A DNA stretch of 64,000 nucleotides from Octopus vulgaris (lineage: Eukaryota), in contig OX597829.1 of the NCBI GenBank assembly GCA_951406725.2, positions 23,126,001-23,190,000 on the forward strand, written 5' to 3'. Positions 33,600-59,825 of this stretch are shown here, piece by piece. The notes beneath the pieces were generated by a model that saw only the letters and a list, made by a program, of their open reading frames with translations, was not told the origin of the DNA and made no database searches. Both the position numbers and the translations under genes were made by a program. The number at the start of each line of letters is the position of its first letter. Positions within the stretch are counted from its first letter, which is position 1.

Positions 33600-34420
33600 T
33601 TGTTGTTGTTATTGTTATTATTATCACTTTTGTTTGCTTTTAATCTGCGTGTTTGATGTAATCTCTTGCCGAGTCACACCCTAGGACAAGTGAAGGTTAA
33701 GAAATGTTGAAATACAACTGAAGCCTTGTCGAGGGCAGTAGAGAAATGCCTCTAAATAATACAACACAAACGTTTAAATTGATAAGGTTTTTCTAAGGAT
33801 ATGGGCAATACTTGTCAGCACAATCTTTTGAATTTCTTTGAAACATGATTCTCCTGGGATGTTGTCTAAATGTTTCGGGCATTCCTCTTTTAATAATAAA
33901 GTCACCTACAATAACAAGAACAGTTTTTGCTTTAAGAGTCCACATCTTTTGTATTTAATATTTCAATTTCCAGGTTCTTATATTTACTAAGTTTGTTAAA
34001 TTCCTTTACAGGTATATTTTTATCAGTAGGAACTCTCACATATATTACTCTGCGAGTATTTTCTTTCCTGTCTTTAATAATTATATCTGGTCGATTATTC
34101 TGGATCTTTCTGTCAGTGTTGGCAAGAAAATCCCAGAGAATGGTGACAGTTTTACCTTCAACGACTGGCTCAGAATGATGTACATACCAATAAGGAGGAG
34201 TGCTGATTTTGTAATGTTTACATATTTTCCAATGTAAATACTCTCCTGTATGGTTTATTGTTTCGCCAAATGCGGAATCTGCATTTAGAGTCTGCACCGC
34301 TCTGGAAAACGTTAGCCTGGTAATTTCTAGAAAGCAAGCTTTGATCTTGTGCTGTCAGTCTCTGCTTTCAGTCCTGAACTTTTCAACCACTGTTGGGTGA
34401 TTGCTTAGTCTATATCAGCA
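33600..34420 (-). pseudogene. R4/Dong-clade LINE 3' part (Zn-knuckle/RLE endonuclease) with UTR ending in (TAA)n
   Basis: AQDQSLLSRNYQ, LHWKICKHY...WYVHH.EPVVE...ILWDF..TDRKI.NNRPDIII...KLSKYKNLEIEI, AHILRKTLSI*. Confidence 0.88.
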
Positions 34421-57777: not shown

Positions 57778-57845
<68 letters not shown>

Positions 57846-57924
57846 GACAAAACCACTATTTTGCAAAACAAACAAGGAAAGACTTAATCAATACATAAAA
57901 TTTTAATAAAAAGTAAAAAAACCG

Positions 57925-57967
57925 CCACTACAATTGTTTCATGTCCTGATCGACAATCTTCAGGTGG
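57925..57967 (-). ncRNA. Minimal type-I hammerhead ribozyme motif in a (TA)n-embedded element (57841-57975)
   Basis: ccac-CTGAAGA-t-tgtc-gatcag-gaca-t-GAAA-caattg-TA-gtgg: core nucleotides present, stems I-III pair, GUA cleavage triplet. Confidence 0.7.
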
Positions 57968-57970
57968 ATT

Positions 57971-58008
<38 letters not shown>

Positions 58009-58029: not shown

Positions 58030-59350
58030 ACGATACAAAATAGAAGATATTTTTTCGAATGTAGAATTGCGCTTAGAATTACCGCCGTTAGAAATACTGG
58101 GTAAATAACCCTTACAAAGCGGAAAAACTTGTCATCAGCATAATTGAGATCGAAGAGGTCTTTGTCGATTAAAAACCCAGATAAACATTCATCCTGAGTT
58201 TTAGAAAATACTACAGCGATTACAATACAGAAGAGACCCACGTCTCACAACCAAGTAGCTTTGCTGTCCGTACACAAGAATCATAATGGACTTTTTTTGC
58301 CAACAGAGGTAATAACTCTCTGAACTTTCAACTTTTTCCAATTAACCTTCTGTGATTCCATTGTATCTCTTGCATGTTCATAGCTTGCACTGGATACACT
58401 GTATGGAATTCCTGCTTACACCGTTCCTACATATCGAACAGAGCCATTTATCTGAAGAGAGTAGAGTCCTATCTATTTTCTTTGGTTATTGTTAACTCTA
58501 AGGCCCTTTGATTCCAGGTTTTGTTTCTACACTTGGAATTTCTTTGCTAATCCTATTACAGATTCTGCTATGAGAACGAAGTCATGAACAAAGAGTGGTT
58601 CCCTCGAACAACAGGTCGCAATTTTCTCTGTTTGAGAGAGACTTTACATGTACAAGCATCTGTCTATTCCGTTTTCTGGTGTGGAAGTCAAATCTGACTT
58701 CTAAGTCTACCAAACTAATAGGTGATTTGGTTTCCTGGAGTTAGTATTACAGAATATTGTTATATTTCGGAATGGTCATATTGCCAGTTTAGCCAATAAA
58801 AACACACGCACTATATATTTGGTGTTATTTTGCTTCAGTGATATTTATTTTTTACATTAATCTTAATCTTATTTCGGCCAGAGTTCTTTCGTCACACTCC
58901 TGTGACCGCATCAGTGGTCCTTTGTTTTCTTCTTTCGTATTTGTGTCTCTCCTTACTAACCGTCAGCCATTTTGTATAACACCAAATATATAGTGCGTGT
59001 GTTTTTATTGGCTAAACTGGCAATATGACCATTCCGAAATATAACAATATCTGTTTCAACACACGACTTCACATAAAAAATCTTGCACAACAAATATTTA
59101 AAAGTATTACAGAATATTAGGTTTTTTTGGCGTTACAGAACTCCAGCAACCTGGTTACCTTCTCATTTCTAGAGTCAAATCTGTAACCTCCATGAACACC
59201 ATGAACTCCGAGGCAGTGCTGCCCATTGAAGTCACCAGCCACAATAAAATAAAGTCTCCGTCATTTGTACCCAAGGCAGTCTACAAAAAAAAAAAAAAAA
59301 CTCGAAAAGAATTTAGTACTTCTGATCATCTTCCAGCCCATACTGTGGAA
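58030..59350 (-). pseudogene. Decayed RTE-like LINE (APE endonuclease and RT fragments)
   Basis: VAGDFNG...HGVHGGYRFDSRNEKVTRLLEFC...CNTNSRKPNHL; LFCIVI...DLNYADD. Confidence 0.75.
58743..59118. mobile_element. Penelope-like mini-element with 75-bp inverted arms, hammerhead-like motif and 16-bp TSD
   Basis: Arms 58754-58828 and 58976-59050; agtattacagaatatt at 58743-58758 and 59103-59118; minus-strand ctgatgcg-gtcaca-ggag-tgtgac-gaaa-gaac-tc at 58876-58920. Confidence 0.75.
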
Positions 59351-59573: not shown

Positions 59574-59825
59574 ATAAGGGACTAAAGCCATCTGAATATG
59601 GCTAGGGACAGGGCAGGGTGGTGGGGGTGTTACTGTTGCATTTAGCCCCAGGCGAACATCAACGTCGCCAGATAGGCTTGACACCATCACGGCGTCCTTT
59701 ATCCTGCCGTGATGGTGTCAAGCCTATCTGGCGACGTTGATGTTCGCCTGGGGCTAAATGCAACAGTAACACCCCCACCACCCTGCCCTGTCCCTAGCCA
59801 TATTCAGATGGCTTTAGTCCCTTAT
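59574..59825. repeat. Perfect 120-bp inverted repeat with 12-nt spacer
   Basis: 59574-59693 is the reverse complement of 59706-59825; the same peptide appears on both strands in the ORF track. Confidence 0.95.

What the first reader, a model, noticed from the sequence alone, without database searches (positions are those of the whole stretch)
57925..57967. Near-textbook minimal hammerhead ribozyme on the minus strand
Seen: CCAC-CUGAAGA-U-UGUC(gaucag)GACA-U-GAAA-CAAUUG-UA-GUGG, with stem I CCAC/GUGG, a 4-bp stem II, a palindromic ACAAUUGU helix III and a GUA cleavage triplet, in a ~135-bp island within (TA)n. Established: Penelope-like elements and retrozymes carry minimal type-I hammerheads with palindromic helix III that may cleave as dimers. 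Inference: this is a self-cleaving terminus of a small retroelement.
Basis: partly seen in the sequence, partly recalled or inferred. Interest (0 to 1): 0.75.

Follow-up and report, generated by a model that had tools for sequence, protein, structure and literature searches.

The report
Hydra-type Penelope retrotransposon hammerhead end
This is a real hammerhead-ribozyme motif in one copy of a high-copy repeat inserted in a TA microsatellite, most likely the broken-off tail end of a known kind of jumping gene (Hydra-clade Penelope-like element), whose RNA is predicted to cut itself only when two copies pair.

Summary
The motif is real: 57925-57967(-) has a complete type-I core, and 0 of 100 shuffles gave an equal hit. 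It is not quite textbook: positions 10.1/11.1 are U·U, not G-C. That feature identifies it. 14 of 25 Hydra-clade Penelope-like families in Craig et al. 2021 File S2 have it. 10 of 24 metagenome loci with the same core and stem II form stem I; all 10 have U·U, and 8 lie 77-388 nt behind Hydra-type ORF ends. The 135-bp island is a multicopy repeat with one fixed end, about 90 nt 3' of the cut, in 8 of 8 laid runs. This copy is 5'-truncated just upstream of the ribozyme. No ORF was linked to this family. The monomer is predicted to misfold and the dimer to be favoured. Two weak extras: 3 of 11 internal junctions fall at the predicted cut, and RNA-guess contigs show ADAR-like A-to-G changes, including the cleavage-site A. 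Cleavage is untested. The scan found this kind before on other DNA. New member of a known kind.

The parts
57840..57977 (-). 5'-truncated copy of a high-copy repeat; likely the 3' end (pLTR region) of a Hydra-clade Penelope-like element
   Evidence: held in 21 of 24 listed runs (4 organisms, 9 studies); shared end at 57837-57846 in 8 of 8 laid runs; other copies continue past 57973-57977
57964..57967 (-). stem I, 5' strand (CCAC)
   Evidence: sequence; pair probabilities 0.65-0.97
57957..57963 (-). catalytic core C3-A9 (CUGAAGA)
   Evidence: sequence
57941..57956 (-). stem II: U10.1·U11.1 mismatch, 4 bp UGUC/GACA, 6-nt loop
   Evidence: loop varies and stem is kept in loose-end variants; U·U typical of Hydra-clade ribozymes
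57938..57940 (-). core G12-A13-A14
   Evidence: sequence
57930..57937 (-). palindromic helix III ACAAUUGU (2 bp in a monomer, 8 bp in a dimer)
   Evidence: self-duplex -6.4 kcal/mol
57928..57929 (-). predicted cleavage site, after GUA (A17 = 57929)
   Evidence: established NUH rule; junctions at 57928-57931
57925..57928 (-). stem I, 3' strand (GUGG)
   Evidence: sequence
57840..57924 (-). U-rich 3' tail of the element, about 85 nt, ending at the family's fixed end
   Evidence: loose ends
57794..57841 (.). (TA)n target tract, left
57975..58006 (.). (TA)n target tract, right

Best explanation
This is a hammerhead-ribozyme motif in a truncated copy of a high-copy repeat that sits in a TA microsatellite, likely the last 135 bases of a Hydra-clade Penelope-like retrotransposon, and it is predicted to cut only as a dimer. 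Shown: the motif, the multicopy family, its fixed 3' end, and the same ribozyme design behind Hydra-type ORFs in other records. Inferred steps: (1) a full element of about 2-2.7 kb, in partial tandem, is transcribed with a ribozyme at each end; (2) two ribozymes pair through the 8-nt palindrome, which rescues the misfolded monomer, and cut after GUA; (3) the element's GIY-YIG endonuclease nicks (TA)n, and its reverse transcriptase starts about 90 nt 3' of the cut and usually stops early. Copies made from cut RNA would begin at the cut. This copy ran about 50 nt further, so its template was uncut or religated. This lone copy is probably inert unless read-through RNA meets a second copy.
For: Motif beyond chance. 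Multicopy: 237, 988, 694 and 167 contigs laid in four large runs. Shared end into AT-rich DNA in 8 of 8 runs. A pattern that fixed core and stem II but left stem I open and allowed A or T at 10.1/11.1 found 24 metagenome loci. 10 of 24 form stem I of 4 bp or more, with about six different stem sequences; all 10 have U·U, against 2 of 14 of the rest (rows not independent). 8 of those 10 lie 77-388 nt behind an ORF ending in a CxH motif on the same strand. The 120 listed homologues of the L009 ORF carry Hydra marks: CxCx5C 120, DK[T/S] 116, DKG 0, RWK 104, CxxC..E..CxH 117. One of 5 scanned hits RVT_1 above cut-off. Craig et al. 2021 define Hydra by these motifs, (TA)n targets and canonical ribozymes; 14 of 25 families in File S2 have U·U, and an octopus family is listed. 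One contig shows the tail, the 3' end up to 57931, then a short inverted end plus tail (X19 piece 25), the inverted-copy structure described for Penelope-like elements. Hammerhead dimer -20.4 kcal/mol, against -16.6 for two monomer MFEs and -21.4 for the dimer MFE. 3 of 11 internal loose ends shown lie at 57929-57931 (binomial P about 0.007), and one DNA-run contig stops matching at 57928.
Against: No ORF is linked to this family. tblastn and a profile of 60 of the 120 homologues found nothing significant in the window, and no genome is held. Outside the ribozyme, the island has no significant similarity to any fetched locus. Its ribozyme differs from that of Hydra-1_Obim. The 8-nt helix III is shorter than the 9-10 nt of the File S2 Hydra rows. 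Two of the three junctions lie 2-3 nt beyond the cut, not on it. Only 20 of 25 loose-end rows were shown and 24 of 68, and none shown lay at the cut. Minimal ribozymes of these elements cut weakly in vitro even as dimers (PMC4209133). U·U also occurs in a phage ribozyme (L001), so it is not exclusive to Hydra.
Confidence: 0.72

Rival explanations
1. It is the end of a non-autonomous, protein-free element (non-LTR retrozyme or pLTR derivative) of a few hundred bases. Such an element would make small circles through tandem ribozymes and borrow a Hydra-type enzyme.
For: No ORF link. The three upstream continuations shown differ from each other. The 3' tail is shared by copies with other upstream sequence (loose ends at 57883-57900). 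Retrozymes are reported to be related to pLTRs (bioRxiv 10.64898/2026.07.22.740005, abstract and passages).
Against: No tandem monomer in the window and no back-joint in 8 runs (the stretch laid was short). The same ribozyme design lies behind intact-looking ORFs in 8 of 10 structured loci. Retrozyme ribozymes are mostly canonical type I (PMC7229834, passages).
Confidence: 0.18
2. The element is of the right kind, but the ribozyme is a non-cutting relic or a folding/recognition signal for the element's enzyme.
For: Monomer misfolds. U·U replaces G-C. This copy, like many, contains an uncut ribozyme. Low in vitro activity is reported for the class. Craig et al. call the function unclear.
Against: The full core and NUH triplet are kept across about six unrelated families whose stem I sequences differ. 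U10.1·U11.1 occurs in natural ribozymes and is reported as the best-tolerated mismatch (PMC3088659, passage). Junctions cluster near the cut.
Confidence: 0.08
3. A chance match in AT-rich repeat DNA.
For: No Rfam match; folding z-score -0.60.
Against: 0 of 100 shuffles; multicopy family with a conserved stem and a variable loop; same design in published Hydra families.
Confidence: 0.01

Closest known systems
Hydra-clade Penelope-like elements and their hammerheads (Craig et al. 2021, PMC8557442; read: section 11, passages, supplement part 2 with the File S1 Hydra sheet and File S2)
   Same: CUGANGA-U / 4-bp stem II / U-GAA design (14 of 25 families), short palindromic helix III, ribozyme near the 3' end, (TA)n target, 5' truncation, inverted short copy at the 5' junction.
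   Different: A different family from Hydra-1_Obim (other stem I and II sequences). Helix III is an 8-nt perfect palindrome against 9-10 nt. No ORF is linked to this family.
Minimal type-I hammerheads of metazoan Penelope-like elements (Cervera and de la Pena 2014, PMC4209133; parts 1-3 of 4 read)
   Same: Type I, short stem I, palindromic 15.2-16.2 region, dimer requirement, mostly single truncated copies.
   Different: Lacks the G10.1-C11.1 pair that they call highly conserved; stem II is 4 bp, not the 7-8 bp of the Schistosoma motifs; keeps a small loop 3.
Animal non-LTR retrozymes (Cervera and de la Pena 2020, PMC7229834, passages; Li, Clavereau and Pollet 2026, bioRxiv 10.64898/2026.07.22.740005, abstract and passages)
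   Same: Type-I ribozyme with a dimer-type helix III in a dispersed non-coding repeat, tied to Penelope-like elements.
   Different: Single copy, no tandem monomers seen, no circle shown, 4-bp stem I.

Membership tests
Type-I hammerhead ribozyme | Core C3-U4-G5-A6-N7-G8-A9, G12-A13-A14, A15.1-U16.1, H17 | tested here: met
Type-I hammerhead ribozyme | Three helices, open end in stem I | tested here: met
   4 bp, 4 bp, and 2 bp (8 bp as dimer); monomer fold disfavoured
Type-I hammerhead ribozyme | G10.1-C11.1 pair (usual, not universal) | tested here: not met
   U·U; a known natural variant
Type-I hammerhead ribozyme | Site-specific self-cleavage | not testable with these tools
   only an indirect junction footprint
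Hydra-clade Penelope-like element | ORF with RT and C-terminal GIY-YIG; RWK, DKT, CxCx5C, CxxC/CxH motifs | tested here: inconclusive
   absent from this truncated copy and the window; present next to same-design ribozymes elsewhere
Hydra-clade Penelope-like element | Insertion into (TA)n | tested here: met
   AT-rich flanks in 8 of 8 runs
Hydra-clade Penelope-like element | Hammerhead near the 3' end, on the sense strand | tested here: met
   cut about 89 nt from the fixed end; sense orientation taken from the homologous loci
Hydra-clade Penelope-like element | 5' truncation, partial tandems, inverted 5' copies, terminal tail | tested here: met
   truncation here; inverted end plus tail in one contig; tandems seen only in L006 and L015
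Animal non-LTR retrozyme | Tandem non-coding monomers of about 170-400 nt | tested here: inconclusive
   single copy in the window; full unit length unknown
Animal non-LTR retrozyme | Abundant circular RNA | not testable with these tools
   only contigs available; no joints

The most novel reading that the evidence does not exclude
The family cuts in the cell, so that a share of insertions start at the cut, and host ADAR editing of its transcripts disarms the ribozyme. Editing would hit the cleavage-site A17, the dimer palindrome and the core. Editing-rich cephalopods would then give a natural test of whether ribozyme cleavage matters for Penelope-type transposition.
Probability: 0.12. Interest if true: 0.6.

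Novelty: new member of a known kind. Interest (0 to 1): 0.24.

Why it matters
The kind is known, and an octopus Hydra family is already in print, so the motif itself is ordinary. Its use is as a test case. What hammerheads do for Penelope-like elements is still unclear (Craig et al. 2021). A young family with very many copies allows a count of insertions that start at the cut, and a test of whether U·U-type dimers cut. The U·U stem-II design also works as a quick marker for Hydra-clade ends: a 39-letter-type DNA pattern pulled out Hydra-type ORFs that Pfam mostly misses.

Tried and rejected
Own-genome search: no genome held, so copy number and ORF linkage could not be measured. Rfam: no hammerhead model matched; the hits at E<=10 were microsatellite matches to miRNA models or below significance. 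A strict family-level pattern in metagenomes found 0 loci. Viral contigs gave 1 locus, an unrelated phage-like contig. Pfam found 0 of 8 Hydra-like ORF pieces above cut-off, and the PDB sequence search gave nothing significant; the clade call rests on motifs, not on a tree. No RNA holder is on record; 'RNA' for the runs laid is the tool's guess. Summed contig depth was not used as copy number or expression. Comparing the difference tables was rejected: every listed row has a contig with the change 31 or more letters from its end, which hides most single changes in the short contigs of the large runs. Contigs ending at 57928 without a loose end occur in both kinds of run and may only mark a graph branch at the variable position 17, so they were not counted. 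The 14 metagenome loci with stem I under 4 bp were set aside as chance or decayed (L003 and L005 lie inside bacterial-type ORFs; L019 is a decayed copy behind a Hydra-type ORF end). An artificial tandem of the island did not fold into the ribozyme dimer in its MFE. Lunse et al. (PMC5785218) was not held and is known here only through a review (PMC6765202, passages). Searches for an earlier description: 'hammerhead ribozyme'+'Penelope'+'octopus' gave only Craig et al.; 'hammerhead ribozyme'+'A-to-I editing'+'cephalopod' gave 0 papers; 'hammerhead ribozyme'+'ADAR'+'retrotransposon' gave 8, none on this by title or abstract start. An exact-motif search of the Craig supplement found no occurrence. 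bioRxiv supplements could not be seen and may list related families.

Full report
Observation. Stem I is CCAC/GUGG, the core is CUGAAGA and GAAA, stem II is UGUC/GACA with a 6-nt loop, helix III is the palindrome ACAAUUGU, and the triplet is GUA, so the predicted cut is between 57929 and 57928. A descriptor scan found it as the only type-I hit in the window; 100 shuffles gave 0.02 loose hits on average and no strict hit. Rfam has no matching model. Two departures matter. Positions 10.1/11.1 are U·U, not G-C. And the monomer is predicted to misfold: the hammerhead fold scores -4.6 against -8.3 kcal/mol for the MFE, with stem II pairs at about 0.02 probability.

Setting. The window is microsatellite-rich animal DNA. 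I take it to be octopus-like, from recall of its SINE and from earlier scan notes; I did not test this. No genome is held. The island is held by 21 of 24 listed runs, from 4 organisms and 9 studies, 4 rows being possible sources of this DNA. Four large runs laid 237, 988, 694 and 167 contigs on it, so it is a diverse multicopy family; summed depth suggests thousands of copies but is not a copy number. In 8 of 8 laid runs, contigs leave the stretch at 57837-57846 into AT-rich sequence, which marks a fixed end about 89 nt 3' of the cut, often with a short AT-rich tail that this copy lacks. Three loose ends show other copies continuing past 57973-57977 with non-TA sequence, so this copy is truncated about 10 nt upstream of stem I. 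Loose-end variants change loop 2, N7 and positions 10.1 or 11.1, but keep the four stem II pairs.

Family. A pattern that fixed core and stem II, left stem I open and allowed A or T at 10.1 and 11.1 found 24 metagenome loci. Ten form a stem I of 4 bp or more, in about six families with different stem sequences. All ten have U·U, against 2 of the other 14 (Fisher P 7e-5, with duplicates among the rows). Eight of the ten lie 77-388 nt behind an ORF that ends in a CxH motif on the same strand; L006 and L015 also show a next ORF starting downstream, as in partial tandems. The L009 ORF has 2480 relatives at E<=0.001 among 7995 scored. The 120 listed carry the motifs by which Craig et al. 2021 define the Hydra clade: CxCx5C in 120, DK[T/S] in 116 and DKG in 0, RWK in 104, CxxC..E..CxH in 117. 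One of five scanned passes the RVT_1 cut-off. File S2 of that paper shows U·U in 14 of 25 Hydra families, nearly all with (TA)n targets, and File S1 lists Hydra-1_Obim from Octopus bimaculoides, whose ribozyme differs from ours. The assignment of this family to Hydra is thus inferred from ribozyme design, position and target. No ORF was linked to it.

Mechanism. Established for the class: metazoan minimal ribozymes in pLTRs do not cut as monomers and cut weakly as dimers, and circles have been proposed as templates (PMC4209133; review PMC6765202). U10.1·U11.1 occurs naturally and is the best-tolerated mismatch (PMC3088659, passage). Computed here: the hammerhead dimer with an 8-bp intermolecular helix III scores -20.4 kcal/mol, 3.8 better than two misfolded monomers and 1.0 from the dimer MFE, which keeps that helix. 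Inferred: a tandem transcript dimerises and is cut, and reverse transcription primed at a nicked (TA)n starts at the fixed end and stops early. This copy includes the whole ribozyme, so its template was uncut or religated.

Footprint of cutting, weak. In the four RNA-guess runs, 11 of the 20 loose-end rows shown (25 in all) are internal, and 3 lie at 57929, 57930 and 57931 (P about 0.007 for a 5-nt window). One is a 144-nt contig made of the tail, 57840-57931 with no difference, and a short inverted end plus tail, a structure described for these elements. One leaves the element after TA into TA-rich sequence, which fits an exact cut plus target TA. One has the 5' half of the ribozyme ending exactly at A17, joined to foreign sequence; a cryptic splice donor could also explain it. 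One 568-nt contig in a DNA-guess run stops matching at 57928. Against: two of the three are 2-3 nt off, and no loose-end row shown (24 of 68) lies at the cut.

Editing signature, weak. Of the 21 difference rows, 11 are T>C and 3 are A>G on the plus strand, and none is C>T or G>A. T>C on the plus strand is A>G on the ribozyme strand; the excess over A>G has P about 0.001 given strand composition (rows share contigs). The sites include A17 (3 of the 3 runs that showed any difference) and two helix III adenosines, whose change to G keeps the palindrome paired by wobble (-5.8 and -3.4 against -6.4 kcal/mol). Contigs under 90% identity are 28 of 96 here against 44 of 2086 in the large runs. Caveats: the runs are RNA by guess only; one helix III variant also appears in a DNA-guess run; one contig carries five T>C changes together at depth 35.7, which may be an inherited copy. 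Hyper-editing of repeats, high in octopus and seen in a lizard Penelope element, is known (PMC5625713, passages). G17 slows minimal ribozymes at least 300-fold (PMC3884650, passages); the effect of inosine was not found in the passages read.

Verdict. A real hammerhead motif, most likely the truncated 3' end of an undescribed family of Hydra-clade Penelope-like elements (0.72), with a protein-free derivative as the main rival (0.18). It works like a dimer-dependent minimal type-I ribozyme; membership of the Hydra clade is likely but not shown. Earlier notes of this scan reached the same reading on other DNA. New member of a known kind; interest 0.24.

Noticed in passing
window 29309 (+), 49992 (-), 40569 (-): Three decayed minimal hammerheads of another family, in islands next to TA tracts. 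They have an extra A after A9, a G10.1-C11.1-type stem II start and an ACGU palindrome with no loop 3; each has core changes.
   Followed up: partly
window 58754-59050: 75-nt perfect inverted repeats enclose 147 nt that hold a hammerhead-like core with A9 changed (start 58914, minus strand), about 1 kb from the finding.
   Followed up: partly
window 59574-59825: 120-nt perfect inverted repeat with a 12-nt spacer.
   Followed up: no
window 63147 (-): A further core-like match with U4 changed, 4-bp stem II and a palindromic ACAUGU-type helix III region.
   Followed up: no
L001:1704-1742 (-): A phage-like contig carries a type-I hammerhead with the same U·U and UGUC/GACA stem II but a monomer-type 4-bp helix III, upstream of a terminase-small-subunit-like ORF (label recalled, not tested).
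   Followed up: partly
window 33932-34354 (-): ORF fragment that resembles the restriction-like endonuclease region of HERO/R2-type retrotransposons (label recalled, not tested). Earlier scan notes report split-core hammerheads behind such elements.
   Followed up: no
window 57947 onward, run X11: A 229-nt contig with 15 differences over 79 letters and a loose end rich in T>C changes that alter core positions A6 and N7: a hyper-edited-looking copy with a destroyed core.
   Followed up: partly
L025:353-392 (+): Same ribozyme design with a perfect 6-nt palindromic helix III and no Hydra ORF nearby, next to what looks like an exon of a host gene.
   Followed up: no
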